Shown here: positions 1-29,833 of the stretch, piece after piece
How positions within the stretch are numbered: the first letter of the stretch is position 1
Layout of the letters: every line of letters starts with the position of its first letter
The notes under the pieces: model-generated
The model's database searches: none
What the model saw: only the letters and a program-made list of their open reading frames with translations
What the model was told of the DNA's origin: nothing
Program-made: the position numbers and the translations under genes
Source: Escherichia phage phiP4
Direction: 5' to 3' (one strand)
DNA: 64,000 nucleotides
Sequence record: PP993145.1

Positions 1-22
1 AGCGGCTAAAAAAGCACCGTTC

Positions 23-256
23 ATGATCAAAGGTTATATCGATACGCCGATTGGTCGCGTAGTAATCGCTAACCTGCTGAGTGTAGCGGTTGACCAGTAC
101 GCCCCGAGTAACCAGAAAGCGAAAGCGGTAGCGGGGGCGGCTATGGAAGCGGCAATGTTGGAAATGGTGCAAAGTTTTAACATCGCTGAGATGATCGATG
201 AAATGGTAAAAGGTATCGATATTTCTACTTTTACCAATAACACCGAAAACGAGTAA
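23..256 (+). CDS. hypothetical protein (77 aa)
   Basis: ORF track; upstream end of window, no recognisable motif. Confidence 0.4.
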   Translation: MIKGYIDTPIGRVVIANLLSVAVDQYAPSNQKAKAVAGAAMEAAMLEMVQSFNIAEMIDEMVKGIDISTFTNNTENE

Positions 257-376
257 TAACTAGCCCATTGTAAAGTTTTGTAAAGGCCGCCTTTTATGGT
301 GGCCTTTTTTGTTATAATGCCTTTACACCGTTTGAGGACGGTTGAAAATTTTCCCAAAAAATTTTGGAGGCTTAAA

Positions 377-607
377 ATGGTTGCTTTTTCTTCTTCTGAC
401 GCTCTTTTCACTGGAAAAGGCTGGGTATCAAATCGCTGGATTATTCAGGAAATGGTGCAAGAGTACGGCATTGCTAAAACTTATACTACCATTCAGGCGC
501 TTTATGATAATGATCAAATCGATCAGCAAACGGCGGGCTTTTTACTGGATACCCTGAAGGCGGAACACTGTACCAAAAAACAAGCCGCTAAAATTGTTTT
601 AATGTAA
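377..607 (+). CDS. hypothetical protein (about 76 aa; internal start of track ORF 296..607)
   Basis: GGAGG-type RBS a few nt upstream of ATG at 377. Confidence 0.4.
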   Translation: MVAFSSSDALFTGKGWVSNRWIIQEMVQEYGIAKTYTTIQALYDNDQIDQQTAGFLLDTLKAEHCTKKQAAKIVLM

Positions 608-656
608 TTAATAACGGGGCGAAAGTATCGCCCCACTAACTAGGGGAGTATCACAA

Positions 657-839
657 ATGATTATTTTTCGAGCTTTTTTAGCGGGTATCTTGGGAGCTAT
701 TTTGACCCTTTTCGCCACCGCTTACGGTATTCAGGATTCCTATTGCGGTTTGGTAAACACAAAACCTATGGTTACTATAGGCGCTGGTATCGCTGTATTT
801 TCTTATCTGCTGGGCTGCATGAATAGTAAAGGAGAATAA
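657..839 (+). CDS. small hydrophobic membrane protein (60 aa)
   Basis: ORF track; hydrophobic composition. Confidence 0.4.
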   Translation: MIIFRAFLAGILGAILTLFATAYGIQDSYCGLVNTKPMVTIGAGIAVFSYLLGCMNSKGE

Positions 840-841
840 AA

Positions 842-1054
842 ATGATCCGCAACGTTTCTCTTGCACGTTCGAAAGGTTTTAAGCTGGTGGACGCTAACAC
901 GTTCGAGCGTCCAGATTGCAAGATCGAATATGTAGCACGTAATAAAAATGCCTTTCGTGTTACCGAGAAAAAATTTGATAAGCGCGGCAACGTGATCCTT
1001 GAAACGGTTAGGCACTTTGCCACCTTTTACGCTGCATTTCGTGGGGTACTATGA
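842..1054 (+). CDS. hypothetical protein (70 aa)
   Basis: ORF track; tightly packed after previous ORF. Confidence 0.4.
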   Translation: MIRNVSLARSKGFKLVDANTFERPDCKIEYVARNKNAFRVTEKKFDKRGNVILETVRHFATFYAAFRGVL

Positions 1055-1290
1055 AAAGCGTTATTGTTGTTATCCTTGCAATGGCTGGCGGTTTTATCGC
1101 CACCTTATTTAAGAATGATCCCACTTCGTTGGGTATCTTTATGCTTTTATCGGGCTATCTGATCGGGAGGTTGTCAAATGATAGCGCAAATTAAAACGGC
1201 TTTTCGTTTTTGGGGCGTCCTGCCTTCAATTGGTTTTATTCTGATAATCATTAGTCAGCTAATGATTATCGTTGGCGTTATCTGGGAGCT

Positions 1291-1641
1291 ATGCAAATGA
1301 TCATTTACGAGGGCAATCGCTTTGTTGCTAATTGCCGCCCGGCATTGTTAGCAAACTATTTAAACCAGCTTTCACCAGCTTATAAGGGCGTTATTAATAT
1401 TTACGAGGGCAAGGCGCATTATAAAATCAATGCGGTCGTTGCCCGTGAACTAGCGTTTCAATTTTTAACCTTTGCATCTTGCGACGTTCAGGTTATGGGT
1501 GAGGCGTTAATTGCAGAAAATGAAGACGATTTTATTAATATTTTCCGTAAGGTATGCACCGAGCGCCTGATAATCAAAGGCGCATATATTCAATCCACGG
1601 CTGATAGTATTGAAACAGCGTTTCGAAAGGTGGCGCAATGA
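1291..1641 (+). CDS. hypothetical protein (116 aa)
   Basis: ORF track. Confidence 0.45.
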   Translation: MQMIIYEGNRFVANCRPALLANYLNQLSPAYKGVINIYEGKAHYKINAVVARELAFQFLTFASCDVQVMGEALIAENEDDFINIFRKVCTERLIIKGAYIQSTADSIETAFRKVAQ

Positions 1642-2017
1642 AACGATGGTTTAATCACTGGTACAAGCGGTTTTTAGTACGCCGTCGCAAGTCTAGGCAT
1701 CAAGATGAGTGGCGGGAGTGGGCAAAGCGTAACGGTTGCCCACTAATATAATAATCACGGGGCGCAACTATCAGGGAGTGCCCCCAATTTTCAAATGATA
1801 ATCATTCTCATTTGACCGCGCCCGCGATGGTTAGCCTGCTAATGGTTCGGGTGTTACGTGTCGCCTTGTGTGATCGTTAGCTCGCTAACTAATTTTCAAG
1901 CCTCCTCCAATTTTGCCCTTGTTTTAGTATCCCCACCAAAATTAAACGCGTTAGAATGCGTTTGAGAGCGTTTTAACGCTATATTAGAATTATTCGCTGC
2001 GTAGGAATACTGTATAT

Positions 2018-2117
2018 TTATCCAGTAGGATAAGCTGTGGATAAGTCTGTTAATAACGCCTCAAAATGGCTAGGGTTTTGTCAAGTCAAATCGTGCTGTT
2101 AATAAGTCTGTGGATAA
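2018..2117. promoter_or_regulatory. DnaA-box cluster: two perfect TGTGGATAA boxes (2036..2044, 2109..2117) plus a near-box TTATCCAGT (2018..2026)
   Basis: Exact 9-mer matches to the DnaA box consensus TTATCCACA (reverse complement) read directly. Confidence 0.6.
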
Positions 2118-2149
2118 CTTAAATAACAGTGTTTCTCACTTCCGTTCTT

Positions 2150-2350
2150 AAATGAGAATCATTATCATTTGTATTTCACTATCTAACTAATAATCATTCC
2201 ACTATCTAACTAATAATCATTCCACTTTCTAAATGAGAATCATTCCGCTTTTTAAATGAGAATCATTTCACTTTTTAAATGAGATTGATTCTCATTTCAC
2301 TTTCTAAATGCGAATTATTATCATTCTCATTCCGCTTTTTAAATGAGAAT
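2150..2350. repeat. cluster of palindromic iterons (AAATGAGAATCATT-type units, about 5 direct copies, plus tandem 24-bp units 2176..2223)
   Basis: Repeated units read directly; a related palindrome also at 1791..1813. Confidence 0.6.
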
Positions 2351-2400
2351 GATTCTTATTATCATTCGTATTTAGCGCAGAGCAATTGCTCTGCGCTTTT

Positions 2401-3000
2401 GTGCAAATCCGACATTGCTCCACGGGTGTTACGTGCGGGCGTGTATGTGCGAATCCGACAATTTTTGGTAGTGTGCAAATCCGACCCGAAAAATTTTTAT
2501 AGTGTGCAAATCCGACAATGAATTTTCCTAAAAACTCCAGCAATCCGATGCTGCGCATCAATCCTGTGGAATTAGCTAGAGTATGTGCAAATCCGACATG
2601 GGTTTATTTGTGCGAATCCGACAAGATTTTTGTGACTTCGATTGGAGGGTGTGTGATTGTGTGGGTTTGGGGAGAAGTTGAGAGAGCGAGAGAAAATAAG
2701 AGGAGAAGCTAGAGGGGCAGCAGTGGTGGCGTGCAACGCCTGATTTGCTGCGTTTTTGGGGAGAGTTGAAAAGATTTGGGTTAATTTGAGATTAGTGGAG
2801 ATAAAGTAAAATTTTATTAGCAAAATGGGGCAAAATAGCTTGACAAGTGAAAATTTCTGTGGCTCTAAAAACTCAGGCAATCACGGGCCTTCGGCCCGAA
2901 ATAATGCTGCCATTTTCAGGAGATTATATGTTCCTAAAAACTTAGGCAATTGTGCAAATCCGACCATAAATTTCTAGAAACACAATGTGCAAATCCGACA
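2401..3000 (+). repeat. eight same-orientation copies of the 14-bp motif GTGC(A/G)AATCCGACA at about 2401, 2448, 2474, 2504, 2585, 2600, 2953, 2987
   Basis: Motif copies read directly; irregular spacing of 15..350 bp; no ORF support. Confidence 0.6.
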
Positions 3001-3473
3001 GTAATTTCTGGAAATGTGTTTTCAAAAAATGTCTCCTAGAAATAACCGCCCTCCCCATAACCGCCCTGTATTAAACCGCCTAGTATATGTTCCTAGAAAC
3101 TTGGGAGAACCGCCCACTAGAAGCGTGAGATCTCGTGAGTATTTCGTGAGAACTCTGGAGTTTCTAGGAAAGTGTTGTGCCATCCTAGCAGATGAGCGGC
3201 AACCGGTGTATCATCTTGAATGTAAATTATGTGGTCAAAAGTTTTACCTTTAATTTAAGTATAAGATCCCCCAAGATTGGAAGAGATGCTCCACCCCTGG
3301 GATACGAATTGCGTGAGATGGTACAAAACTTCTTAAGATTTCCCTAGTCCTTCGACAAGCTACGGGGGAAATAGAAGTTTCCCATCCACCATCCGTATCC
3401 GGGTGGATCTCTTTATTCTATGTTATTTCATAGAGTTATTATAACATGCAGAAATCATAACGTCAAGTAGAGT

Positions 3474-4364
3474 TTATTCATCGAACATGAGATTTCCTTT
3501 CATCCCCATCTCCGCATACTCCATGAGTTCTTTGATGGATCTCACGGGGTAATCTACTTTACTAAAGTTATCATAGATCTTACATGAACTCTCATACAAC
3601 TCGTTAGGTATCTGCAATTTGTTATCTGTTAGCTTCTCATAACGTGCAGAAGAATTTGTACCGTCAAACAGAACTGCGATAACTGCGGCGATTTGTTTAG
3701 TAAGATCATCTGCTCCTAGAATTATTCTATTAATAGCAATCGTTACTTCATGCTTAGGTTTAGCAGGTGGAAGGATAGGTTTGAGATCCTTAGGTAAAGG
3801 TTCTGTTCCTAGGAATCCTTCTTTTGTGCGGAACCAATAATTATCTAGATCAGATATCGTCTTAGACTTATTCCAAATAGTGAAGCAGGGTTTATTTCCT
3901 TCACGATCTCTGTATTCACGAATTGGAAGGTAATGATCAGGGAATGAATTGAGTGCATCATGCATCGGTGAGCCTGTCTTTTTGAATGACAAACCATACA
4001 ACTCATTATAATTCATAACTTCATCTTCGTAAACATGGAAATCTTTATATGCTGGAAGATTAAACCATTCCTGAAGTGAATGAACTGCAAAACGTTGTGC
4101 CCAAGCATGCATCACTAGAACTCTGTATTCTTTTACTTCATCTTTTGGAGAAGTACCTTTAGCTGTTCTAGCTGAACGAATACAGAACATCTCAACAACA
4201 CGTTTCTCATTTAAAGAGAGTTCAGAATAACAACGTTCATGGCAACCTTCTAGCATTTCTAGAAGTTCACGTAGTTTCTCTACATCGACCGGTGGAAAAG
4301 GTCTTTCTTCAACTGCGAATTTACCAGTTACACCTTTTGGTTTTCTATTACTATAAAATCCCAT
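3474..4364 (-). CDS. hypothetical protein (296 aa)
   Basis: ORF track; first gene of the minus-strand block. Confidence 0.55.
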   Translation of the reverse strand: MGFYSNRKPKGVTGKFAVEERPFPPVDVEKLRELLEMLEGCHERCYSELSLNEKRVVEMFCIRSARTAKGTSPKDEVKEYRVLVMHAWAQRFAVHSLQEWFNLPAYKDFHVYEDEVMNYNELYGLSFKKTGSPMHDALNSFPDHYLPIREYRDREGNKPCFTIWNKSKTISDLDNYWFRTKEGFLGTEPLPKDLKPILPPAKPKHEVTIAINRIILGADDLTKQIAAVIAVLFDGTNSSARYEKLTDNKLQIPNELYESSCKIYDNFSKVDYPVRSIKELMEYAEMGMKGNLMFDE

Positions 4365-4966
4365 TAATTACCTCTCTTATCTTCATTAATAGCAGCTCCC
4401 AACGCTTCAAGGATAGCATCACTCATACTCCCAGGCTTAAGATTATTAAAGTGAGTAACATAAATGGGACTTCTAAAACCCTTAGCATCCGCAGGTGCTA
4501 CGCTTCGCATATCAGATTCAAAAGCTTCTTGAGTGTGTTTCAACTGTACAGAAGGGCCGTAATCTTCCCCAAACTTATATGACTGCGTACTACTTACCAC
4601 ACTCCCACAAGGAACATTGTGCAAATCCGGTGATTTATTTAGCATTGAGATTGTCCCTGACTGCCACGGATCTCTAATAGTCACTGGAGTACTAGGGCGG
4701 TTCACCTCAGTCTTCACAAGTTTATATCCTGCATCGATTAATACGTTAATTAGATTATCAGCTGGGATGCGAGCCTTACCAAAAATCTTACGAGCATCTT
4801 CGAGCTTATCCTCAAGATCTTTACACGCTCTAAGGTCAGTGTGTGCAAATGTTAGCTTCATGGATTTGAATTGTACAGTAGCAGTTAGATCTTTAAAGCT
4901 ATAATCCCATGTGTTCAGTTCATGGTCTGGTACTACTTGAATAGATTGTTGTACATTAAAAGTCAT
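4364..4966 (-). CDS. hypothetical protein (200 aa)
   Basis: ORF track; stop/start junction with neighbours. Confidence 0.55.
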   Translation of the reverse strand: MTFNVQQSIQVVPDHELNTWDYSFKDLTATVQFKSMKLTFAHTDLRACKDLEDKLEDARKIFGKARIPADNLINVLIDAGYKLVKTEVNRPSTPVTIRDPWQSGTISMLNKSPDLHNVPCGSVVSSTQSYKFGEDYGPSVQLKHTQEAFESDMRSVAPADAKGFRSPIYVTHFNNLKPGSMSDAILEALGAAINEDKRGN

Positions 4967-5151
4967 TATTTATTCTCCAGTTTGTCTAATAGCTTATGAG
5001 CTGCTAGATTATATTGTTTGAGTTCACGATTAAGGATTTGATTCTCACACTTTAGCTCTAGATTCTTATTATTAAGAATATTGCAGATTAGTAGAAGTGC
5101 TAATATTAGTAACAGAGAACCTACGAGCATTAAAAGAAAAAGAGTTTCCAT
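4966..5151 (-). CDS. small membrane protein (61 aa)
   Basis: ORF track; hydrophobic N-terminus. Confidence 0.45.
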   Translation of the reverse strand: METLFLLMLVGSLLLILALLLICNILNNKNLELKCENQILNRELKQYNLAAHKLLDKLENK

Positions 5152-5591
5152 TATTTTATCTCCATTCTTAACTTTGAAAACTTATTATACCAAACTATAT
5201 GATTATCGTCAATTACAAATTTATGATAACATGCTGGTACGGTATAAGTTCCATAATCTGTGACACGCTGCACAACCTTGTGTGCACACAGTCGACAACC
5301 ATGCCCTTCTAAATGAGATCTAGCAGTTTGCCAGTAATAACCATCATGATCTGGACAATAGATCTCGACTTGCTGTTGCATTGTTTTGTAATTTACACGC
5401 TCATATCCAAAGAAAGCTCCATGAACTGCAACAGCTTTCTTGATAAATATAAGGTTTAGTGCTTCTTGTTGAAAGTCGGGATGTAGCTGCTTAATCTTAG
5501 TTCTATTAATAGATCCATCCGATTTGATGAACCTATTTATTGGAAAGTTGTTAGCTTCCTCGATTAGTAATTCATTTACTTTTTCTCTCAT
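5151..5591 (-). CDS. hypothetical Cys/His-containing protein (track ORF 5151..5693; start moved to ATG at 5591)
   Basis: Track ORF overlaps the upstream ORF by 100 nt; internal ATG at 5589..5591 removes the overlap. Confidence 0.45.
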   Translation of the reverse strand: MREKVNELLIEEANNFPINRFIKSDGSINRTKIKQLHPDFQQEALNLIFIKKAVAVHGAFFGYERVNYKTMQQQVEIYCPDHDGYYWQTARSHLEGHGCRLCAHKVVQRVTDYGTYTVPACYHKFVIDDNHIVWYNKFSKLRMEIK

Positions 5592-5592
5592 A

Positions 5593-5817
5593 TTATATAC
5601 TCTCACAGCTAAGGTAAAAACATTCGTAAGCATCACCAGTAAACTCTTTATCTTGTAGTATACATTTAGCCTGGTCTTCTGGTACTCCGGCATCTAATAA
5701 TTGTTGTTTACTTGGCTTTTCAGCGAATACTTTTACAAAATATTCACCATCCTGATTATACTCATTTATATCTCTAGTAAGGACATATAATTGCATCTGA
5801 AGTTCCTTGAAACACAA
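5593..5817 (-). CDS. hypothetical protein (74 aa)
   Basis: ORF track. Confidence 0.4.
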   Translation of the reverse strand: MCFKELQMQLYVLTRDINEYNQDGEYFVKVFAEKPSKQQLLDAGVPEDQAKCILQDKEFTGDAYECFYLSCESI

Positions 5818-5850
5818 AAGGCCAGAACAATTAAGTCCTGGCCTCTAGAA

Positions 5851-6222
5851 TTAATGAAGTTGTTTACCACTTCTTAAAATAGTGGCCGTTTCCATAAGAT
5901 TTAACGTTGTATCACGCTTTTTGATTTGTTTGTCGAGTTCATCGGTACGTTTGCCAATGTAAGCGTTAATAGCCATATTCATAGCGGAGGCGAGATCTTC
6001 TTTGGTTATCTCTTCGTCATCTAAGGCTAATTTAGCCAAAGAATCGAAAGTACTAGAAAGTCCTATAAGATCAGAAGCTTCCCCAGCCAAAATAGGGTTA
6101 ACATTATCTATTGTTACTTCTAGCATAGAGTTAACAATATCTTCTCCGTCTACTAGACCAGATTCAATATTACTCTCCCATTCCTTCATCTGCTCCAGCA
6201 ATGGATTTTTCTTTTCTGTCAT
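5851..6222 (-). CDS. hypothetical acidic protein (123 aa)
   Basis: ORF track. Confidence 0.5.
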   Translation of the reverse strand: MTEKKNPLLEQMKEWESNIESGLVDGEDIVNSMLEVTIDNVNPILAGEASDLIGLSSTFDSLAKLALDDEEITKEDLASAMNMAINAYIGKRTDELDKQIKKRDTTLNLMETATILRSGKQLH

Positions 6223-6631
6223 GGTAGAGGTTTCCTGTGTCAGTTGGTAAGAAGGACGATTGAGCTTTAGGCGGATGTTGTTTAGTAATCCAGTTAAGAA
6301 TCAGTACACGACTAGGAACAATATCAGTGTTGCACCAAAAATCATGAACCCATTGACGAGCATCCTCAAACTTACCAAATTTATATGCTTTCTTAAATAA
6401 TTCAAACCCAAAACAATCTGGTGTAAAGTCTACTTCACGATATTGAATTACTTTAGAACCAGTTAGGTCTTGGATCGCTGCATTAATTTCTGTATGCGAG
6501 AATTTTGTTTCGTGAAACTTATTAAAGAATCGGTAGTTGAAGCGTCCGTTCGTTTCGACAAACAACTGGATGAAGAGATCGTTAAATTGGTTATCAAACC
6601 AGTAATTCTGTAGTTGTTGTAGTGCTGTCAT
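6170..6631 (-). CDS. hypothetical protein (153 aa)
   Basis: ORF track. Confidence 0.5.
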   Translation of the reverse strand: MTALQQLQNYWFDNQFNDLFIQLFVETNGRFNYRFFNKFHETKFSHTEINAAIQDLTGSKVIQYREVDFTPDCFGFELFKKAYKFGKFEDARQWVHDFWCNTDIVPSRVLILNWITKQHPPKAQSSFLPTDTGNLYHDRKEKSIAGADEGMGE

Positions 6632-6828
6632 TTACGAACTCCGTTAATTGCCACGATGATGCCTTCGTACATAAAAGGAAGTAGCCCAGAAGTATAGAAG
6701 ATATTTTCCGTTATTCCTAGATGTCGAAAAAGTATATTAAATAACGCTGTTAGAAATACAATCTGAGGCAGTAATACAAAATATTCAGTTACAATCTTTG
6801 GTGCCTGATAAACAAGACGTTTTATCAT
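6628..6828 (-). CDS. small membrane protein (66 aa)
   Basis: ORF track; hydrophobic. Confidence 0.4.
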   Translation of the reverse strand: MIKRLVYQAPKIVTEYFVLLPQIVFLTALFNILFRHLGITENIFYTSGLLPFMYEGIIVAINGVRK

Positions 6829-6927
6829 TGTTTTTAAGTCTCCTTATTACTTTGGCCTGCTCCACAATAATAAAAACTGCAAGCACTAATAGTGCTATTA
6901 GCCCAGCAGTAACTGGTACTAAATCAA

Positions 6928-7254
6928 TCATGGGAGACGCCACACGTAATTAGCTGTCTGTAGGATCTTAGTGGTATCATCATGGTACATTACTACAGAC
7001 TTTGGTGAATAGCTATCAGCTAGTTCTTTACGAATCATTTCACACTCTTCACCAGTATCAATATTTTTAACTATCACTTTCATATTAAGTGGTGTTAATA
7101 CAGAAAGTGGTTTCCAAGAGTCCTCAATTTCAATCCCTACCTTTTTCTCGATTAACATGAGGACTTCTAATGTATCGTCCGGAATACTAATATTATTATT
7201 CACAAACTGTAATATCTCATGTAAGGTATTTAATTCATTAAAATTAAGCTTCAT
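6928..7254 (-). CDS. hypothetical protein (108 aa)
   Basis: ORF track. Confidence 0.5.
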   Translation of the reverse strand: MKLNFNELNTLHEILQFVNNNISIPDDTLEVLMLIEKKVGIEIEDSWKPLSVLTPLNMKVIVKNIDTGEECEMIRKELADSYSPKSVVMYHDDTTKILQTANYVWRLP

Positions 7255-7489
7255 CTTTAAGAATATCCTCTACCATATCACAAGACTGTTGCAATTCATC
7301 CGCAATTCGTTTAATATCGGTTTTTGTTACTTTACCAACTAACATCACCAGTAACATAGAAAAGATAATAAGTGGAACTGGAATAACAAATAAAGCTACC
7401 TTAACAACATTCTTTGGTGCCCATGTGTGGTACTTAGTAACCAGTACACCAACCACAATTAGATAAAACGCTAGAATAAACATCATCAT
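7244..7489 (-). CDS. membrane protein (81 aa)
   Basis: ORF track; two hydrophobic segments. Confidence 0.45.
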   Translation of the reverse strand: MMMFILAFYLIVVGVLVTKYHTWAPKNVVKVALFVIPVPLIIFSMLLVMLVGKVTKTDIKRIADELQQSCDMVEDILKDEA

Positions 7490-7767
7490 TTTTTAATCTC
7501 CGTAATTATCTGTGCACGCATTACTTTATTAGGTAATTTTGTATTCCCAGCTATTGCTTCAATATTGTTTAGTTTTTCTTTTAGAATATCTGAGCGTCTT
7601 TGCGCTAGTTCAATATCTTGTTCTTGTTCTATTAAGCGACAGTGGAGTCCACTATTAGTAATAAGCATACTCTCCATGTTTTTTCGTATGCTTACAATAC
7701 CAATAACCCCACCAATCGCTGCTAGTGTCATAAGCACTAGCAATCCAATGAGAATTTCAATTAACAT
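7486..7767 (-). CDS. membrane protein with N-terminal TM segment (93 aa)
   Basis: ORF track. Confidence 0.45.
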   Translation of the reverse strand: MLIEILIGLLVLMTLAAIGGVIGIVSIRKNMESMLITNSGLHCRLIEQEQDIELAQRRSDILKEKLNNIEAIAGNTKLPNKVMRAQIITEIKK

Positions 7768-7930
7768 TAAATACCCCTACATTTTTCGTTATCCGGGACT
7801 AATTTACACATTTCTACATTTAACTCATGGAGAGATTTGTCTACCTCAGTTAAGTGTACGTTAAGAGCAACTATATTATATATTAGTGTTCCTATAAGGA
7901 ATGACAGTATTGAAATTGATACCCTTTCCA

Positions 7931-8200
7931 TTATTTCTTACCTTTCAGTTGCTTAACTTCACGCTCAAAAGATGCTGCACGACGTTCGGCAGTTGCCTGA
8001 TGTTCTTTCGCAAAACGTGCTTCCTGTTTTGCTAGGTTGAACGCCATAGCATTCTTATTCAGGGAATCATACATCTTTTTCATTGCCGGGATAGACATCT
8101 TCATGAGCTGGCCTTCAAAACCCTGCATGTCGAGGAGAATTGCCAGAACGTTAGCCATTTCATTTTTAGTCATGTTTTCCATTAGAATTTCCTCTCTCAT
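7931..8200 (-). CDS. hypothetical protein (89 aa)
   Basis: ORF track; promoter 8215..8243 immediately upstream. Confidence 0.5.
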   Translation of the reverse strand: MREEILMENMTKNEMANVLAILLDMQGFEGQLMKMSIPAMKKMYDSLNKNAMAFNLAKQEARFAKEHQATAERRAASFEREVKQLKGKK

Positions 8201-8214
8201 TAACTTATGAACTT

Positions 8215-8243
8215 ATTATACAGAATTTTAAGGCTTAAAGCAA
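8215..8243 (-). promoter_or_regulatory. sigma70-type early promoter (TTGCTT-N17-TATAAT on minus strand)
   Basis: -10 complement ATTATA at 8215..8220, -35 complement AAGCAA at 8238..8243, 17-nt spacer. Confidence 0.6.
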
Positions 8244-8260
8244 CTGAATTTTTTAATTAC

Positions 8261-8689
8261 TTACCAATCGTTAACGAAACCTGAGAACTCAGAAGCCAAT
8301 ACTTGCTCAAATTTTTCTGCAATTTCAGGATGATTTTTGCAAATCAGTTCAATGCACGCTTCTGGCGTCATCCCATCATCTTCAGGATTACCATAGTATT
8401 TATCCCAAAGATCATCAGGAATGATGCGTTCAGCGAGGTCTTGGAAATAAACTGCCTGATACCGTGGAGCCTCTTCAGCAAAAAGTTCTTCGATCTCTTC
8501 GTCTGCCTCACCTCTGTAATCTGCCATTAATAGGGCATCAGTTGCGTAACATTCCCAGACCATCAAGCGTTCAGAGATAGGGTTAGACTTATCCTGAACG
8601 TAGGACTGGAACAAGGTTCGGAAAGTTGCCTTAACTTGTTCAAACTTATCTGCTGCTGCGAAAACTAGAGCTTTATCAACTTTGTTCAT
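8261..8689 (-). CDS. hypothetical acidic protein (142 aa)
   Basis: ORF track; promoter 8720..8748 upstream. Confidence 0.5.
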   Translation of the reverse strand: MNKVDKALVFAAADKFEQVKATFRTLFQSYVQDKSNPISERLMVWECYATDALLMADYRGEADEEIEELFAEEAPRYQAVYFQDLAERIIPDDLWDKYYGNPEDDGMTPEACIELICKNHPEIAEKFEQVLASEFSGFVNDW

Positions 8690-8719
8690 TTTGATTCCTT
8701 CTAATCAATTTATAAAGTA

Positions 8720-8748
8720 ATTATACAGAAACTTAAGCATTTTAGCAA
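8720..8748 (-). promoter_or_regulatory. sigma70-type early promoter (TTGCTA-N17-TATAAT)
   Basis: Hexamers and 17-nt spacer read directly. Confidence 0.6.
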
Positions 8749-8856
8749 ATAAAACTTTTAATTAAAATGCCTAATCCCGTGCCAATAGCAATACAAATGA
8801 TTATAAGTATTGCTATCGCTTGTATGACTCGTTTAATAATAGCCTCAGCTATATAC

Positions 8857-9378
8857 TTAGACATTTAACATCCAGCTAGTTTTATCATGTGAGGTATACT
8901 TACCACTCATGATGTCTTCCAGACGTACTGGTGATTTTGCATATTCGACACAAACGTTAATATAACGAGGATCCCCCATTAGCTCAAAGTGAGTATGCCC
9001 ATGTAAATTCTTCTTACCTCTCAGCTCCCCATGGTGTATTGGAGCATGGGAAAGCCAGAAGTTTTTATACTTAACTAGTGATTGTACGTTATCTACAACC
9101 CCTATTAAGTCTTTGAAAGATAATCCTTCTCGTTCTAAGTCGTGGTTTCCCAAAACTAACGTAGTTCTAACATTGCCAAAGAGTTTTTCGAACTTTTCCA
9201 AACCATTTCTAGATACAAATGCGTCTCCTAAAATATAGAATACTGTACGCTTATCTTTCACGGATGTAATAGTATCCATAATAAATTCGTCATGCTCTTC
9301 CATAGTAGAGAAGATTGGTCTGAATTTAGTAATATTTGCATGCCCCAAGTGGAGATCACTCCAAAAACAAACTTTCAT
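8857..9378 (-). CDS. calcineurin-like metallophosphoesterase (173 aa)
   Basis: Motifs GDAF..., GNHD, GHTH typical of the metallophosphatase fold. Confidence 0.65.
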   Translation of the reverse strand: MKVCFWSDLHLGHANITKFRPIFSTMEEHDEFIMDTITSVKDKRTVFYILGDAFVSRNGLEKFEKLFGNVRTTLVLGNHDLEREGLSFKDLIGVVDNVQSLVKYKNFWLSHAPIHHGELRGKKNLHGHTHFELMGDPRYINVCVEYAKSPVRLEDIMSGKYTSHDKTSWMLNV

Positions 9379-10253
9379 TAAAGAACCCTCTGTACACCAC
9401 AGCTATCTTCCCGGAGTGTAGTAAATGTGGTGATTTTGCCCGTTTCATCGTTAACTTGCGCAACCGTCAACTGCCCGTTGAAAACACCGCCAGTATCAAG
9501 ATAAACACGGTTTTTATAGAGAAGTGGATAAGGAACCCCAGTATGTCCGTGAAACACGAAATCTACCCCTTTAACTTCTGGTACTTCTACCGTGTATTTT
9601 TCTTTAAATCCTGCGTAACGCTGGAAATATGGGTGTTCTTCTCCATTTTTGGACAAGTGGAAGCCTATTTCTTGGATTACATCTCGATCCCATAAATATG
9701 GCTCAACATGGTATCCAGGATGGTCATGTGGGTCTTCCTTAGCTGCTTCTACTTGCGCAATAAGATTATCCCATACTGGGGTTTCTACCTCATTACCACA
9801 TTCTTTGTATGTAAAAGGTACACCACCGTGAACAACACCAAATTTCTTACCACGATGTCTAACAGTTAGGAATATTGGCATTTTTTCAGCCATATCTTCG
9901 GCAATATTTTTAATGGTGTCTGCATCCAGCTCATTCATAGCCCACATACCACCGTTATACATCCAATTAGCCCAATCTCCCACAATCATAAATTGATCAT
10001 GATTACCACGGACACTGATAAAACGTGGATTATACAGGAATTTGGCTAAAACTTGTAGGTTTTGTGTGCCTCGGTCTATTAAGTCTCCGACACATACTAC
10101 GCAATCTTTTTTGCTATTATACCCAGCTAATTTCAACGCATCTTCTAGCAAATCATTGCATCCATGAATATCACCAACGAAAAACAAGTTGGCCTCATCC
10201 GGCACTACTAGAGTTTTATGTACATTAAATTCTTTTTTCATAATTATTCCCAA
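9378..10253 (-). CDS. serine/threonine protein phosphatase (PPP family, 291 aa)
   Basis: Motifs GDIHG, GDLIDRG, RGNHD match the PPP signature GDxHG / GDxxDRG / GNHE. Confidence 0.7.
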   Translation of the reverse strand: MGIIMKKEFNVHKTLVVPDEANLFFVGDIHGCNDLLEDALKLAGYNSKKDCVVCVGDLIDRGTQNLQVLAKFLYNPRFISVRGNHDQFMIVGDWANWMYNGGMWAMNELDADTIKNIAEDMAEKMPIFLTVRHRGKKFGVVHGGVPFTYKECGNEVETPVWDNLIAQVEAAKEDPHDHPGYHVEPYLWDRDVIQEIGFHLSKNGEEHPYFQRYAGFKEKYTVEVPEVKGVDFVFHGHTGVPYPLLYKNRVYLDTGGVFNGQLTVAQVNDETGKITTFTTLREDSCGVQRVL

Positions 10254-10517
10254 ATAACAGTTAAAATAGTTGTGCCATAGTCATTAGATAGTTGGAGAGT
10301 ATAACCCTCTTTATAGAGGGCTTTTATAGCTTCATAACTAATTTCATCACGATTAAACTGCACAAAAGAACCCCCCAATCCCCACAGAAGAAACTATTCT
10401 CTTTTTAACATACTTATATGGTTTCTTTCTGCTATTAAGAAGTGCAGCTCTATTTATCCTGGCTAAACGTTTTGCTTGTTCCGCTAACATTTAATCCTCC
10501 AATCAATTTATATAACT

Positions 10518-10546
10518 ATTATACCAAAATTTTTAGCAAAAAGCAA
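10518..10546 (-). promoter_or_regulatory. sigma70-type early promoter (TTGCTT-N17-TATAAT)
   Basis: Hexamers and spacer read directly; conserved leader element follows. Confidence 0.55.
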
Positions 10547-10587
10547 GTAAAATAAAAGCCTGATCAGCTAAGATCAGGCTTTGTTTA

Positions 10588-10878
10588 TTAGTCCTCTGGA
10601 TTATCATCCAGGAAATTTTTAATAGCTTCGTGCATAGTTTCTTTACGAAGCTGACGTCCAATCAGAATATGATTAGCTTCTACTCGACCATTGGGTAAAC
10701 GATCCGCCAGAACTACTACAGGAACTTGGCGCACACCAAATTTCTGCATTAATTCTGTATTATCAGTCTCTTTATGGATTTCCAAATTATAGTCACTGAC
10801 TACTTTATCAAATACTGGCTCAAACATTTTGCAAGGGTTGCAAGTGGAACCTTTCAATAGATATACTAATTTACTCAT
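10588..10878 (-). CDS. thioredoxin-fold protein with C-N-P-C motif (96 aa)
   Basis: CxxC motif near N-terminus in a thioredoxin/glutaredoxin-like context. Confidence 0.5.
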   Translation of the reverse strand: MSKLVYLLKGSTCNPCKMFEPVFDKVVSDYNLEIHKETDNTELMQKFGVRQVPVVVLADRLPNGRVEANHILIGRQLRKETMHEAIKNFLDDNPED

Positions 10879-28846: not shown

Positions 28847-29833
28847 ATGACAGAAGAAGTAGCTAAGAGTCCTGAGACCGTCGCTAGCGTTGCAGCAGAA
28901 CTGCACCGTCACGAGGAATCGGATAAGAAAAAGTGGGAGAAGGTCAGAGCCTACGAAGAGAAACATCGCGAACACGACGATGAAGAAGATGACGATGATG
29001 AACATTGTCATAAATATGGAAAACATAAAATGCAAGAACCAGTAAACGTATTCACTAGTGGCTTCCCTGGCCTACTGGGTGGTTACCCAGCAAACGCAGG
29101 TGCTTTCGGTGGTGAAGGTATGGGACTATTCGGAGCTATCCTAATCGGTGCTCTATTAACAGGCGGATTCGGTGGTTTCGGTGGATTCGGTGGACGTGGT
29201 GTAGTTGGTGATGGTACCGCAGTTGATGCAGTACTTCAGAACCAAGATACCGCTAGTATTCTAGCAGCTATTAACACTACTCGTACAGAAGCTAACCAGG
29301 GTACTGGAGCTGTTTTAAGCGCAGTTAACAATGGTTTTAGCCAGACATCCCAAAACCAGAGCCGTGATACTCAGTCTGTACTAACTACGATCTATGGTAC
29401 AGGTGCTAATCTGTCTAATCAGATCTGCCAGGAAACTCGCAACGTTATTCAGGGTCAGTTCGATCTTTCTCGCCAGATTGATCAATCTTTCGCAGCTAAC
29501 CAGATAGCTCGTGCACAAGATAAGTTTGATTCTGCACAGATCGCTTTCCAGCAGACTTTACAAACTAATAACCAGTTTGCCGCTGTTCAGGCTCAGATGT
29601 GTGCTAACCAGAACTCTCTGGAACGTCAGATCGCTGAATGTTGCTGTGAACTTCAGACTGCGATCGCTGGTGTAACTACTGCGCGTATCCAGGATGAGTT
29701 AGACGCATGTCGCCTACGTGAAGCAATCGCTGCTGGTAGCGGTGCTAACGGTCAGGTAATTAATCAAATCGCTTTAAGTCTTGGTGCTATCACTCAGACT
29801 CTGGCTGGTCTGCAGGCTAAACTGCCGGCTTAA
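28847..29833 (+). CDS. low-complexity protein: acidic N-terminus, Gly-Phe repeat hydrophobic segment, Gln/Asn-rich body, Cys cluster (track ORF 28796..29833)
   Basis: AGGAGG RBS before ATG at 28847; GGFGGFGGFGG and ECCCE motifs read directly. Confidence 0.5.
   Translation: MTEEVAKSPETVASVAAELHRHEESDKKKWEKVRAYEEKHREHDDEEDDDDEHCHKYGKHKMQEPVNVFTSGFPGLLGGYPANAGAFGGEGMGLFGAILIGALLTGGFGGFGGFGGRGVVGDGTAVDAVLQNQDTASILAAINTTRTEANQGTGAVLSAVNNGFSQTSQNQSRDTQSVLTTIYGTGANLSNQICQETRNVIQGQFDLSRQIDQSFAANQIARAQDKFDSAQIAFQQTLQTNNQFAAVQAQMCANQNSLERQIAECCCELQTAIAGVTTARIQDELDACRLREAIAAGSGANGQVINQIALSLGAITQTLAGLQAKLPA

What the first reader, a model, noticed from the sequence alone, without database searches (positions are those of the whole stretch)
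1790..3300. ORF-poor repeat locus with two perfect DnaA boxes at the boundary between + and - strand gene blocks
About 1.5 kb carries no credible coding capacity but holds perfect DnaA boxes (2036..2044, 2109..2117), palindromic iterons and a stable hairpin (3385..3410). It sits exactly where transcription polarity switches. In T5-type phages the injection-stop region at the end of the first-step-transfer DNA is described as containing repeats, palindromes and DnaA boxes, so this may be that locus or an origin-like element.
Basis: partly seen in the sequence, partly recalled or inferred. Interest (0 to 1): 0.75.

Follow-up and report, generated by a model that had tools for sequence, protein, structure and literature searches.

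The report
T5-type phage injection-stop region
This gene-free stretch is the already-described "injection stop signal" and terminal-repeat end of a T5-like phage; what may be new is that it also carries near-perfect look-alikes of host LexA and Fur binding sites, and that a small structured-RNA gene sits next to it.

Summary
Window 1790-3300 is non-coding, sits between convergent + and - strand gene blocks, and holds the only two perfect DnaA boxes in 64 kb. The window is a T5-like phage (Demerecviridae). The locus is collinear with T5 9.15-10.66 kb, which spans the annotated injection stop signal (iss), the 7.9% nick and the end of the left terminal repeat. By homology, the repeat ends at window 2865|2866 and the nick site is 2396|2397. 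All of this has been published (Heusterspreute 1987; Wang 2005; Davison 2020), so the finding is already known. The mechanism is still untested.

Three things do not appear in the papers I could read:
- A near-optimal LexA/SOS box (2008-2027, 25.4 bits) abuts the DnaA boxes. It is conserved as far as Vibrio, Proteus and Klebsiella T5-like phages.
- The AT-rich repeats (1791-2366) are strong Fur-box look-alikes (up to 20.9 bits).
All T5-like phages have this cassette, but its body is hypervariable.

An origin-like function is unlikely.

The parts
1759..1792 (+). GC-rich hairpin plus short T run (GGGGCGCAACTATCAGGGAGTGCCCC-CAATTTTC) after the last pre-early ORF (1638-1751). It is terminator-like.
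   Evidence: Read directly from the sequence. It is collinear with T5's annotated rho-independent terminator at 9275-9296.
1791..1815 (.). Fur-box-like palindrome TCAAATGATAATCATTCTCATTTGA. It contains the exact 13-bp core of the Fur consensus (AATGATAATCATT).
   Evidence: Fur PWM score 18.1 bits. It matches the 7-1-7 motif at 14 of 15 positions. It is conserved at about -550 to -670 from the first DRD in most Markadamsvirinae loci (not in T5 or 3 others).
2008..2027 (.). LexA/SOS-box look-alike TACTGTATATTTATCCAGTA (CTG...CAG intact).
   Evidence: It is the only site in 64 kb within 3 mismatches of the consensus, with 0 expected. PWM score is 25.4 bits, above all 18 real E. coli SOS boxes in leave-one-out scoring (maximum 24.2) and above the maximum of 200 shuffles (23.0). 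It is present in every relative that has upstream flank, and in distant Demerecviridae.
2036..2117 (-). DnaA-box module (the core of Davison's IRD'-spacer-IRC'). It has perfect boxes at 2036-2044 and 2109-2117 and one-mismatch boxes (TTATTAACA) at 2048-2056 and 2097-2105. The boxes form two pairs 3 bp apart, all in one orientation.
   Evidence: (D10). An inverted second copy lies in T5 at about 6098-6228, upstream of the window start. Described in Davison 2020.
2148..2366 (.). AT-rich array (31% GC) of Fur-box-like units (Davison's DRE/DRC/pal). It has 23-bp tandem units at 2150-2287 and palindromes at 2148-2172, 2275-2299, 2304-2331 and 2339-2366.
   Evidence: (D1-D3). Fur PWM scores are 18.3, 15.0, 14.3 and 20.9 bits. 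None of 1000 local shuffles reaches 18 bits. Hit density is 5.25 per kb here versus 0.15 per kb elsewhere across 37 loci.
2374..2400 (.). Perfect 24-bp palindrome AGCGCAGAGCAATTGCTCTGCGCT followed by further Ts (T-run TTTT, 2397-2400). It is terminator-like on the + strand. It corresponds to T5's major 7.9% nick, which by homology falls on the - strand between 2396 and 2397.
   Evidence: DNA fold -12.4 kcal/mol, z -5.3. T5's nick...CCCTGCGC|TTTTGTGC, is at 9748|9749. There is a compensatory change relative to other genomes: AGAGCAATTGCTCT versus AGGGCAATTGCCCT.
2401..2999 (+). Eight copies of the 13-mer GTGCRAATCCGAC (Davison's DRD). Six are inside the terminal repeat (starts 2401, 2447, 2473, 2504, 2585, 2610) and two are beyond it (2952, 2987).
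   Evidence: 8 observed, 0.05 expected, none elsewhere in the window. The spacing pattern 0, 46, 72, 103, 184, 209, 551, 586 recurs, fully or with one or two copies missing, in most relatives.
2630..2790 (+). G-rich, purine-rich tract (65 G versus 13 C; GC skew about +0.33).
2861..2881 (+). End of the left terminal repeat by homology (last base 2865: ...GGCTC|TAAAAACTCAGGCAAT). The end falls inside one member of the repeat family TCCTAAAAACTYMRGCAAT. Other copies are at 2526-2544 and 2932-2950, with an inverted copy at about 3155-3171.
   Evidence: Right-repeat copies of 7 genomes end at this sequence. T5's LTR end at 10219 has the same sequence. The region is 98% conserved. Repeat family: (D6, I15).
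2884..2898 (.). Almost invariant small GC hairpin CGGGCCTTCGGCCCG, 19 nt beyond the repeat end.
   Evidence: DNA fold -7.4 kcal/mol. All but one column is invariant across 16 genomes.
3040..3116 (+). Four copies of AACCGCC (starts 3044, 3059, 3074, 3108) in the unique DNA just beyond the repeat.
3255..3466 (-). Separate element: an sRNA-like cassette. It has a sigma-70 promoter (TTGACG 3466-3461, 17-nt spacer, TG-TATAAT 3443-3438), a predicted start near 3431, a long imperfect hairpin (3408-3290), and a terminator stem (3284-3267) followed by a U-rich tail.
   Evidence: -64.2 kcal/mol, z -4.75; same architecture with at least 6 unrelated bodies in other T5-like phages; 3 compensatory pairs in the T5-type body.

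Best explanation
Identity. Window 1750-3270 is the orthologue of phage T5's 'Repeat Region 3'. This is the non-coding, cis-acting region at the right end of the left terminal repeat. It contains the injection stop signal (iss), the 7.9% nick site and the terminal-repeat boundary.

Anatomy. It is a composite of protein-binding arrays. From left to right:
- the terminator of the rightward pre-early operon;
- a Fur-like palindrome;
- a LexA-like box;
- two pairs of DnaA boxes;
- an AT-rich array of Fur-like units;
- a GC palindrome with a T run, which is also the nick site;
- six DRD 13-mers and a G-rich tract;
- the repeat end at 2865;
- two more DRD copies.

Shown here: the homology, the positions, the statistical excess of each motif, and their conservation.

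Known from the literature: in T5, DNA entry pauses at about 8% of the genome, in this region, without any phage protein synthesis. It resumes only after the pre-early proteins A1 and A2 are made.

Inferred mechanism (about 0.35 likely): as this segment reaches the inner membrane or cytoplasm, it is captured by abundant host DNA-binding proteins. Davison proposed membrane-associated DnaA. I add LexA and Fur as candidates. Possibly the captured segment is bridged to the inverted LexA/DnaA module 2-4.5 kb upstream. The result would be a nucleoprotein complex that arrests or anchors the DNA until A1 and A2 release it.

The right-hand part (2400-3000) more likely serves nicking and terminal-repeat formation during packaging.
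For: Identity:
- 450 T5-like phage records match.
- The locus is collinear with T5, where the iss, the LTR end and the nick are annotated.
- The repeat end maps to 2865 and the nick to 2396|2397.
- The block is 0.84-0.98 conserved over most of its length (0.47-0.67 in four indel-rich 50-nt bins), against about 0.3-0.65 for the adjacent sequence outside the block.
- No ORF is conserved and no Rfam family matches.
- The published description matches feature by feature: paired DnaA boxes 3 bp apart, DRE/DRC/DRD repeats, palindromes, and an inverted copy in Repeat Region 2.

Host-factor sites:
- DnaA boxes hold fixed positions, and perfect and variant boxes swap places between genomes.
- The LexA box scores 25.4 bits and is conserved in phages whose A1 protein is only 34-73% identical.
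- The Fur-like sites score 18-21 bits and are unmatched by shuffles.
Against: - The arrest mechanism is untested. Papers from 2023-2026 still call the functional role unknown.
- Proteins in the cytoplasm would bind DNA only after it has entered, so it is unclear how they would halt translocation.
- A T5-like phage with this locus type is recorded as grown on E. coli DH5a, which is recA1 to my knowledge. RecA-dependent LexA cleavage therefore cannot be required for DNA entry to resume.
- Fur-like boxes are absent from Vibrio phage JSF10 and weak in the Klebsiella phage, so Fur cannot be a universal component.
- From my own recollection (not checked with the tools), genome-wide host screens for T5 resistance mainly recover fhuA. 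That argues against any non-essential host factor being strictly required.
- The binding-site look-alikes could instead be sites for phage proteins.
Confidence: 0.85

Rival explanations
1. The palindromes and repeats are binding sites for phage-encoded proteins, not for host LexA, Fur or DnaA. Candidates are the DNA-binding protein A2, the nickase, and the small terminase subunit. On this reading the resemblance to host operators is incidental or mimicry. A2 binding at these sites would release or re-start DNA transfer.
For: - A2 is an annotated DNA-binding protein required for second-step transfer.
- Its AlphaFold model (pLDDT 82) is all-helical, with an N-terminal part whose only weak, non-significant fold matches are to HTH proteins.
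- The DRD 13-mers and the DRA family match no host operator that I know of, so they must have some other binder.
- The spacer of the LexA-like box is more conserved than LexA itself would require.
Against: - The pause happens without phage protein synthesis (literature), so the stop itself cannot depend on newly made A2.
- The LexA-like box scores higher than every genuine SOS box tested. The DnaA boxes are exact consensus. This is hard to explain as coincidence.
- A2 has no significant sequence or structural similarity to LexA: no Pfam hit, no PDB hit, and Foldseek E of about 3.
Confidence: 0.3
2. The right half (about 2370-3000) is mainly a packaging and DNA-processing signal. It would hold the nick site, the DRD and DRA repeats as recognition sites, and the cut that creates the right genome end and hence the terminal repeat. 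On this reading only the left half (1790-2370) concerns injection. This complements the best explanation more than it competes with it.
For: - The repeat end at 2865 falls inside a DRA copy and is flanked by DRD copies, 6 on the left and 2 on the right.
- The 50 bp around the cut are the most conserved of the whole block, at 98%.
- T5's major nick maps to the palindrome at 2374-2397.
Against: - No similar motif occurs at the other repeat boundary in T5.
- None of the tools can test terminase or nickase specificity.
- Davison places the shear point of first-step-transfer DNA (about T5 9618) within this repeat region, not cleanly to its left.
Confidence: 0.35
3. The locus is a transcription control zone. 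It would hold a LexA-, DnaA- or Fur-regulated promoter (1962-1990) driving a roughly 400-nt non-coding transcript that ends at the 2374-2400 terminator, and/or a convergent-terminator buffer between the pre-early and early operons.
For: - There is a promoter-like site TTGAGA-17-TAGAAT at 1962-1990, with the LexA box at about +11 to +30.
- There are terminator-like hairpins at 1759-1792 and 2374-2400.
- The region lies between convergent operons.
Against: - By inspection, the -35 element does not look conserved in T5, and neither promoter element is evident in the Klebsiella, Proteus or Vibrio phages, yet the LexA/DnaA module is retained in all of them.
- The second copy of the module sits in a different context, a divergent promoter region.
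- Simple terminator duty would not need 1.5 kb of highly conserved repeats.
Confidence: 0.12
4. The locus is a DnaA-dependent replication origin or origin-like element: a DnaA-box cluster next to an AT-rich repeat array that serves as an unwinding element.
For: - There are four DnaA-type boxes.
- They are immediately followed by a 31% GC array of 23-bp tandem repeats. This layout superficially resembles oriC.
Against: - According to Davison 2020, citing electron-microscopy mapping studies, T5 origins lie near the genome centre, and replication functions are not in the cell during first-step transfer.
- The element is duplicated in both terminal repeats.
- The AT-rich repeats match the Fur box rather than E. 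coli's 13-mers.
Confidence: 0.05

Closest known systems
Bacteriophage T5 injection stop signal / 'Repeat Region 3' (Heusterspreute et al. 1987 Gene 52:155; Wang et al. 2005; Davison 2015 and 2020 preprint 10.1101/866236). The same region is noted in BF23 at 8.6-10.3 kb (PMC10644984).
   Same: - The position is the same: the right end of the left terminal repeat, between pre-early and early genes.
- Both are non-coding.
- Both have paired DnaA boxes 3 bp apart.
- Both have the DRE/DRC/DRD/DRA repeats, palindromes, the nick palindrome and the repeat-end sequence.
- DNA identity to T5 is 84-91% block by block.
   Different: - The window has 8 DRD copies, where Davison counts 9 in T5.
- Both outer DnaA boxes are perfect here, whereas T5 has only one perfect box.
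- The copy number of the 23-bp AT-rich units differs.
- The LexA-like and Fur-like reading of the palindromes does not appear in the papers I could read.
E. coli DnaA-box clusters (oriC, datA, DARS)
   Same: Both are clusters of consensus and near-consensus 9-mers (TTATNCACA) at fixed spacing, next to AT-rich DNA.
   Different: There are only four boxes per module, all in one orientation. No replication role is known in the phage. Each terminal repeat carries two inverted modules 2-4.5 kb apart. The module is flanked by LexA-like and Fur-like sites.
LexA operators (SOS boxes) and Fur boxes of enterobacterial promoters. Published sets: 18 SOS boxes in PMC3009722 Table 4; 11 iron boxes in PMC10665472, Methods.
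   Same: The sequence match is as good as or better than that of genuine sites: LexA 25.4 bits; Fur 18-21 bits. The core AATGAGAATCATTAT is identical to the published iron box GATAATGAGAATCATTATT.
   Different: The sites are not placed over a conserved promoter. They lie in a convergent, terminator-rich gap. Binding has not been tested. The Fur-like units are not universal in the phage family.
Stepwise genome entry of phage T7 (transcription-driven internalisation)
   Same: In both, only the leading few percent of the genome enters first, and the rest needs functions expressed from that leading segment. This comparison rests on my own knowledge.
   Different: T7 has no discrete repeat-rich stop locus, and its entry is driven by RNA polymerases. 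For T5 the stop is a cis-acting site, and restart needs A1 and A2.

Membership tests
T5-type injection stop signal / Repeat Region 3 | Lies at the right end of the left terminal repeat, between the pre-early (+) and early (-) gene blocks | tested here: met
   The locus is collinear with T5 9.15-10.66 kb. The repeat-end sequence shared with 7 genomes maps to 2865. The flanking ORFs are T5.011-017 and T5.018 homologues. The window's own right repeat is outside the window, so the end is inferred by homology.
T5-type injection stop signal / Repeat Region 3 | At least 1 kb without genes | tested here: met
   No ORF is maintained across 19 relatives. Conservation shows no coding pattern, and the block tolerates indels in repeat units.
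T5-type injection stop signal / Repeat Region 3 | IRD'-spacer-IRC' module with DnaA and DnaA* boxes in pairs 3 bp apart at fixed spacing, plus an inverted copy in Repeat Region 2 | tested here: met
   The four boxes are at 2036, 2048, 2097 and 2109, with no indels between them in 17 close relatives. An inverted match to T5 6098-6228 was found. The Repeat Region 2 copy of this phage lies upstream of the window and could not be seen.
T5-type injection stop signal / Repeat Region 3 | DRE/DRC AT-rich repeats, a DRD 13-mer array, DRA copies and the nick palindrome | tested here: met
T5-type injection stop signal / Repeat Region 3 | DNA transfer actually pauses here in vivo | not testable with these tools
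   This needs shear (blender) experiments or time-resolved marker-entry assays.
DnaA-dependent replication origin | DnaA-box cluster adjacent to an AT-rich unwinding element | tested here: inconclusive
   The boxes are present. The adjacent AT-rich array exists, but it resembles Fur boxes rather than known unwinding repeats.
DnaA-dependent replication origin | Replication initiates at the site | not testable with these tools
   The literature summarised in Davison 2020 places T5 origins near the genome centre.
LexA operator (SOS box) | CTGT-N8-ACAG palindrome matching the enterobacterial consensus | tested here: met
   The window has CTGT-N8-CCAG, a variant also found in the genuine uvrB, recN, dinB and dinI boxes. 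It scores 25.4 bits. Most relatives have exact CTGT-N8-ACAG with one mismatch to the 20-mer consensus.
LexA operator (SOS box) | Overlaps a promoter and is bound by LexA | tested here: inconclusive
   A promoter-like site is present upstream in the window but is not conserved in distant relatives. Binding cannot be tested here.
Fur box | Match to the 19-bp / 7-1-7 iron-box consensus | tested here: met
   Five loci score at least 14 bits and three score at least 18. Four of the six 7-1-7 hits in the window lie here. Shuffle controls.
Fur box | Operator position over an iron-regulated promoter; Fur binding | tested here: not met
   The sites lie in a convergent intergenic gap with no conserved promoter. 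Binding itself was not tested.

The most novel reading that the evidence does not exclude
The T5-family injection-stop region may be a trap built from operators of several abundant host DNA-binding proteins, not DnaA alone.

- A near-optimal LexA box is fused to the DnaA-box pairs. This combination is conserved across Demerecviridae, from E. coli phages to Vibrio phages, and is duplicated in inverted orientation 2-4.5 kb upstream.
- In Markadamsvirinae and the Proteus phage, arrays of Fur boxes are added.

Together, these proteins would arrest or anchor the first 8% of the genome, or sense the host's SOS, iron or replication state before the rest of the genome is committed.

Unlike dnaA, lexA and fur can be deleted. 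That would make the host-factor model of the 58-year-old two-step-injection problem directly testable by genetics.

Separately, the adjacent hypervariable promoter-hairpin-terminator cassette may be an unrecognised family of phage small RNAs.
Probability: 0.25. Interest if true: 0.7.

Novelty: already known. Interest (0 to 1): 0.3.

Why it matters
As stated, the finding rediscovers a published element, so it adds another orthologue and no new kind of system.

Its value lies in the open question behind it. Why T5 DNA entry stops at 8% and how it restarts have been unknown since Lanni's 1968 model. Papers from 2023-2026 still say the repeats and DnaA boxes have not been tested.

Two host proteins that can be deleted, LexA and Fur, have near-perfect and evolutionarily conserved site look-alikes in this region. 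That gives simple experiments: binding assays, and measurements of first-step-transfer length in fur-deletion and lexA mutant hosts. The only existing hypothesis concerns DnaA, which is essential and does not allow such tests.

The neighbouring variable small-RNA-like cassette is a separate lead that could be checked against existing T5-like RNA-seq data.

Tried and rejected
- **Coding potential.** Nine ORFs were tested by tblastn against 19 relatives. None is maintained.
- **Known RNA families.** The Rfam scan of 1500-3700 found nothing near any gathering score.
- **Fur-like palindromes bracketing the first-step-transfer DNA.** A second conserved cluster of Fur-PWM hits lies about 9.5 kb upstream. 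In T5, however, it lies inside the dmp coding sequence, where it encodes ...EDDNDYQ.... I treat it as probably incidental.
- **LexA cleavage as the restart trigger.** The chain would be A1-induced DNA damage, then RecA activation, then LexA cleavage. I rejected this as an essential step because a T5-like phage carrying this locus type is recorded as grown on DH5a, which is recA1 to my knowledge. In addition, A2 mutants degrade host DNA yet fail second-step transfer.
- **A2 as a LexA-like protein.** There was no Pfam hit and no PDB sequence hit. The AF2 model gave only non-significant HTH matches, LexA among them at E of about 3. The result is inconclusive.
- **Promoter at 1962-1990 as a conserved LexA-controlled promoter.** It is not conserved in distant relatives.
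- **Covariation in the window's sRNA-like body type.** The sequences are 97% identical, which is too little variation. The T5-type body gave 3 compensatory pairs, but these come from essentially one lineage split.
- **Davison 2015 review.** It could not be opened. The 1987 and 2005 papers were not consulted. I cannot exclude that any of them mentions LexA or Fur sites.
Full report

Yes.
- TGTGGATAA, the reverse complement of the DnaA-box consensus TTATCCACA, is at exactly 2036-2044 and 2109-2117. These are the only perfect boxes in the 64 kb.
- Two boxes somewhere in 64 kb is not unusual (14 of 100 shuffles). Here, though, they lie 73 nt apart inside a duplicated 24-nt unit (GCTGTGGATAAGTCTGTTAATAAC / GCTGTTAATAAGTCTGTGGATAAC, D10).
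- Each perfect box is paired 3 bp away with a one-mismatch box (TTATTAACA). The result is four boxes in one orientation.
- The span has several strongly over-represented repeat families. GTGCRAATCCGAC occurs 8 times, all on the + strand at 2401-2999, against 0.05 expected. The AATGAGAATCATT family gives 14 overlapping hits in 1794-2360, out of 20 in the whole window, against 4.5 expected for the whole window. There are many palindromes.
- + strand ORFs stop at 1751 and - strand ORFs begin at 3474.
- Of nine ORFs of 35-102 aa inside the gap, eight are broken or missing in most of 19 related genomes. The ninth (2825-2977) is intact in 12 of 19 and sits in DNA that is 91-98% conserved. No Rfam family matches.
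- The hairpin at 3385-3410 exists but is modest on its own (-5.8 kcal/mol, z -2.1). It belongs to a different element (section 7).

**2. What is it?**

- The window is a T5-like phage of the family Demerecviridae. The 1.8-kb query matched 450 phage records, the best at 88-93% identity.
- Window 1-1057, 1916-2274, 2219-3082 and 3141-3273 are collinear with T5 (NC_005859) at about 7250-10661.
- That record annotates the left terminal repeat as 1-10219, an 'injection stop signal (iss)' at 9140-10149, and a 'major DNA single-chain interruption' at 9748/9749 on the minus strand.
- In seven independently deposited genomes that include both repeats, the right-hand copy ends at ...GACAAGTGAAAATTTCTGTGGCTC. 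In the window this is 2865, followed by TAAAAACTCAGGCAAT exactly as in T5.
- T5's nick (...CCCTGCGC|TTTTGTGC) maps to window 2396|2397. This is the right edge of a perfect 24-bp palindrome (2374-2397, -12.4 kcal/mol, z -5.3). The window and one other genome carry AGAGCAATTGCTCT where the rest carry AGGGCAATTGCCCT, a compensatory double change.

**3. What is already known?**

- Davison's 2020 preprint (10.1101/866236) cites Heusterspreute et al. 1987 and Wang et al. 2005. It describes this 'Repeat Region 3' in 25 T5-like phages.
- The features it lists are paired DnaA and DnaA* boxes 3 bp apart in IRD'-spacer-IRC', an inverted copy (IRC-spacer-IRD) in Repeat Region 2, DRE/DRC repeats, nine DRD copies, DRA copies and palindromes palC-palJ.
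- It also reports much higher conservation than in the neighbouring genes.
- It proposes, without experiments, that membrane-bound DnaA holds the iss.
- The BF23 genome paper (2023), a PNAS paper (2026) and a 2026 preprint all still describe the region as repeats, palindromes and DnaA boxes whose role has not been tested.

The finding as written is a correct rediscovery of a known element.

**4. Conservation, checked independently**

- I baited IMG/VR with a pair of DRD 13-mers, not with DnaA boxes. This gave 42 loci from about 30 T5-like genomes.
- The DRD spacing (0, 46, 72, 103, 184, 209, 551, 586) recurs, fully or with one or two copies missing, in most of them. A perfect DnaA box lies 215-450 nt upstream in nearly every locus that has flank.
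- In a 20-genome alignment the block 1750-3270 is 0.84-0.98 conserved over most of its length. Four indel-rich 50-nt bins (2181-2280, 2681-2730, 3081-3130) fall to 0.47-0.67. The adjacent sequence outside the block is about 0.3-0.65.
- At the four box positions, perfect and variant boxes exchange places between genomes. For example, some genomes have TTATCCCCA at box 1 and a perfect box at box 2. This looks like selection on the sites rather than frozen sequence.

**5. Beyond the literature I could read: a LexA-box look-alike**

- Eight bp to the left of the first DnaA box is TACTGTATATTTATCCAGTA (2008-2027).
- It is the only sequence in 64 kb within 3 mismatches of the 20-nt SOS-box consensus, with 0 expected.
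- I built a PWM from 18 published E. coli SOS boxes (PMC3009722, Table 4). The site scores 25.4 bits. That is above every one of those real sites in leave-one-out scoring (median 19.1, maximum 24.2) and above the best score in 200 shuffles (23.0).
- The CCAG variant also occurs in genuine boxes (uvrB, recN, dinB, dinI).
- Most relatives have TACTGTATA(W)(W)TATACAGTA, one mismatch from the consensus, at the same position. Many have a second copy in Repeat Region 2. There is no other hit in more than 300 kb of T5-like sequence.
- I then took distant family members found through the A1 protein: Klebsiella Sugarlandvirus (A1 73% identical), Proteus Novosibvirus (42%), Vibrio cholerae phage JSF10 (34%) and Vibrio phage Athena (31%).
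- The three loci that could be scanned across this position (Klebsiella, Proteus, JSF10) each have a 1.7-2.4-kb gene-free gap there. In Athena the record starts at this point, so its gap was not assessed.
- Within that gap sits the same module: CTGTATA..TATACAG, then about 10 nt, then TGTGGATAA, then about 60 nt, then TGTGGATAA. The LexA-PWM scores are 18.8-26.0 bits, and the surrounding sequence is unrelated.
- Davison 2020 mentions neither LexA nor SOS. Full-text searches found nothing. I could not open Davison 2015 and did not consult the 1987 and 2005 papers, so priority is uncertain.

**6. Fur-box look-alikes**

- The AT-rich units (Davison's palC, DRE and DRC) have the core AATGAGAATCATT. 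The copy at 1794-1806 is AATGATAATCATT, which is exactly the central 13 bp of the Fur consensus. AATGAGAATCATTAT is identical to the core of a published natural iron box, GATAATGAGAATCATTATT.
- A PWM built from the 11 published Gram-negative iron boxes gives 18.1 (1791), 18.3 (2148), 15.0 (2281), 14.3 (2310) and 20.9 bits (2345).
- Six of the seven positions scoring at least 13 bits in the whole window lie in 1790-2370. The seventh is at 1258.
- Whole-window shuffles give 0.02 sites of at least 18 bits. Local shuffles of 1790-2370 never reach 18 bits in 1000 trials.
- Across 37 T5-like loci, hits of at least 14 bits occur at 5.25 per kb in the 700 nt left of the first DRD, against 0.15 per kb elsewhere.
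- The signal is strong in Markadamsvirinae and the Proteus phage, weak in the Klebsiella phage and absent in Vibrio phage JSF10. It is therefore lineage-restricted.
- A second cluster near the extreme left genome end lies inside the dmp gene and is probably a by-product of Asp/Asn codons.

**7. The 'stable hairpin' belongs to something else**

- On the minus strand, directly after the stop codon of the T5.018 homologue (3474), there is a near-consensus promoter: TTGACG, a 17-nt spacer, then TG-TATAAT (3466-3438).
- The 178 nt downstream of it fold into a short 5' hairpin, a roughly 120-nt imperfect hairpin (3408-3290), and a terminator stem with a U-rich tail (3284-3258). The fold energy is -64.2 kcal/mol, z -4.75.
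- Every T5-like genome examined has the same conserved promoter and terminator tail (GGGGGATCTTAT...) at this place. Between them are at least six unrelated bodies of 171-204 nt. All fold the same way (-51 to -65 kcal/mol, z -4.8 to -6.0).
- The window's body type occurs in 38 phage records from both Tequintavirus and Epseptimavirus, always at least 94.7% identical.
- The T5-type body shows three compensatory pair changes.
- There is no ORF longer than 10 codons, no Rfam hit and no annotation in T5. Other depositors mostly annotate nothing beyond the end of the adjacent gene.
- This looks like an unrecognised, cassette-like small-RNA gene. A DNA-level palindrome remains an alternative.

**8. 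How does the locus most likely work?**

- Shown here: the identity, the anatomy, the motif statistics and the conservation.
- Known from the literature: DNA entry pauses at about 8% of the genome without phage protein synthesis. It resumes only after A1 and A2 are made. Naked FhuA proteoliposomes allow full ejection, so a cellular component is implicated.
- Inferred, at about 0.35: the left half (1790-2400) is a platform for abundant host DNA-binding proteins. Davison proposed DnaA. LexA is, on sequence grounds, at least as good a candidate, and Fur is a candidate in Markadamsvirinae. The platform may be bridged to the inverted LexA/DnaA module 2-4.5 kb upstream, arresting or anchoring the DNA until A1 and A2 act.
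- The right half (2370-3000) holds the nick palindrome, the DRD array and the DRA copy that is cut at 2865. It more plausibly serves nicking and terminal-repeat formation at packaging.
- Arguments against:
  - Cytoplasmic binders act only on DNA that is already inside the cell.
  - RecA-dependent LexA cleavage cannot be essential, because T5-like phages grow on DH5a.
  - Fur-like boxes are not universal.
  - The sites could belong to phage proteins such as A2. Its predicted fold is helical, with only weak, non-significant matches to HTH proteins, and it matches nothing significantly.
- An origin function is unlikely.

**9. Verdict**

Overall interest is low to moderate (0.3). It rests on the additional leads, which turn the 'host factor at the iss' idea into something testable with non-essential host genes, and on the neighbouring small-RNA-like cassette.

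Noticed in passing
window 3255-3466, minus strand: An sRNA-like cassette: a near-consensus sigma-70 promoter, a short 5' hairpin, a roughly 120-nt imperfect hairpin, then a terminator (-64 kcal/mol, z -4.75). All T5-like phages examined have the same promoter and terminator ends at this place, but at least 6 unrelated bodies that fold alike. The window's body type is in 38 phage records at 94.7% identity or more. The T5-type body shows 3 compensatory pairs. It is unannotated and has no Rfam match.
   Followed up: partly
window 2008-2027; L046:5467 and 9167; L047:6373 and 9911; L048:7761; L049:579: A near-optimal LexA/SOS-box look-alike abuts the DnaA boxes. It is conserved across Demerecviridae, including Klebsiella, Proteus and Vibrio phages, and often has a second copy in the Repeat Region 2 equivalent. 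It is not mentioned in the T5 papers I could read.
   Followed up: yes
window 1791-1815 and 2148-2366: The AT-rich palindromes and direct repeats of the iss are strong Fur-box look-alikes (14-21 bits). They are conserved in Markadamsvirinae and the Proteus phage but absent from Vibrio phage JSF10.
   Followed up: yes
L033 about 4872 (T5 positions about 231-255) and equivalent places in L013, L015, L019, L022, L043: A second conserved cluster of very strong Fur-PWM hits (18-21 bits; T5 has a perfect TGATAATCATTATCA) lies near the extreme left genome end. It is inside the dmp coding sequence (...EDDNDYQ...), so it is probably incidental.
   Followed up: partly
window 1237-1282: Fur-PWM hits of 12-15 bits (GCTAATGATTATCGTTGGC and others) lie inside a small pre-early ORF (1178-1300). 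Their significance is unknown.
   Followed up: no
window 2630-2790: A strongly G-rich, purine-rich + strand tract (65 G versus 13 C) lies just inside the terminal-repeat end. It is partly conserved. Its function is unknown.
   Followed up: no
window 2884-2898: An almost invariant hairpin, CGGGCCTTCGGCCCG, lies 19 nt beyond the terminal-repeat end.
   Followed up: no
window 3040-3116: Four copies of AACCGCC occur in 70 nt of the unique DNA just beyond the repeat. This region is indel-rich in relatives.
   Followed up: no
window 4617-4629; L006, L012, L027, L031, L032, L036 at about +2360 to +2425 from the first DRD: An extra DRD 13-mer lies inside the coding region of the T5.019 homologue. It is exact in several relatives and has two mismatches (GTGCAAATCCGGT) in the window.
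   Followed up: no
window 29073-29092 and 62482-62501: Two further LexA-PWM hits of 17.9 and 17.5 bits. Both are below the 99th percentile of shuffle maxima (19.3), so they are not significant.
   Followed up: no
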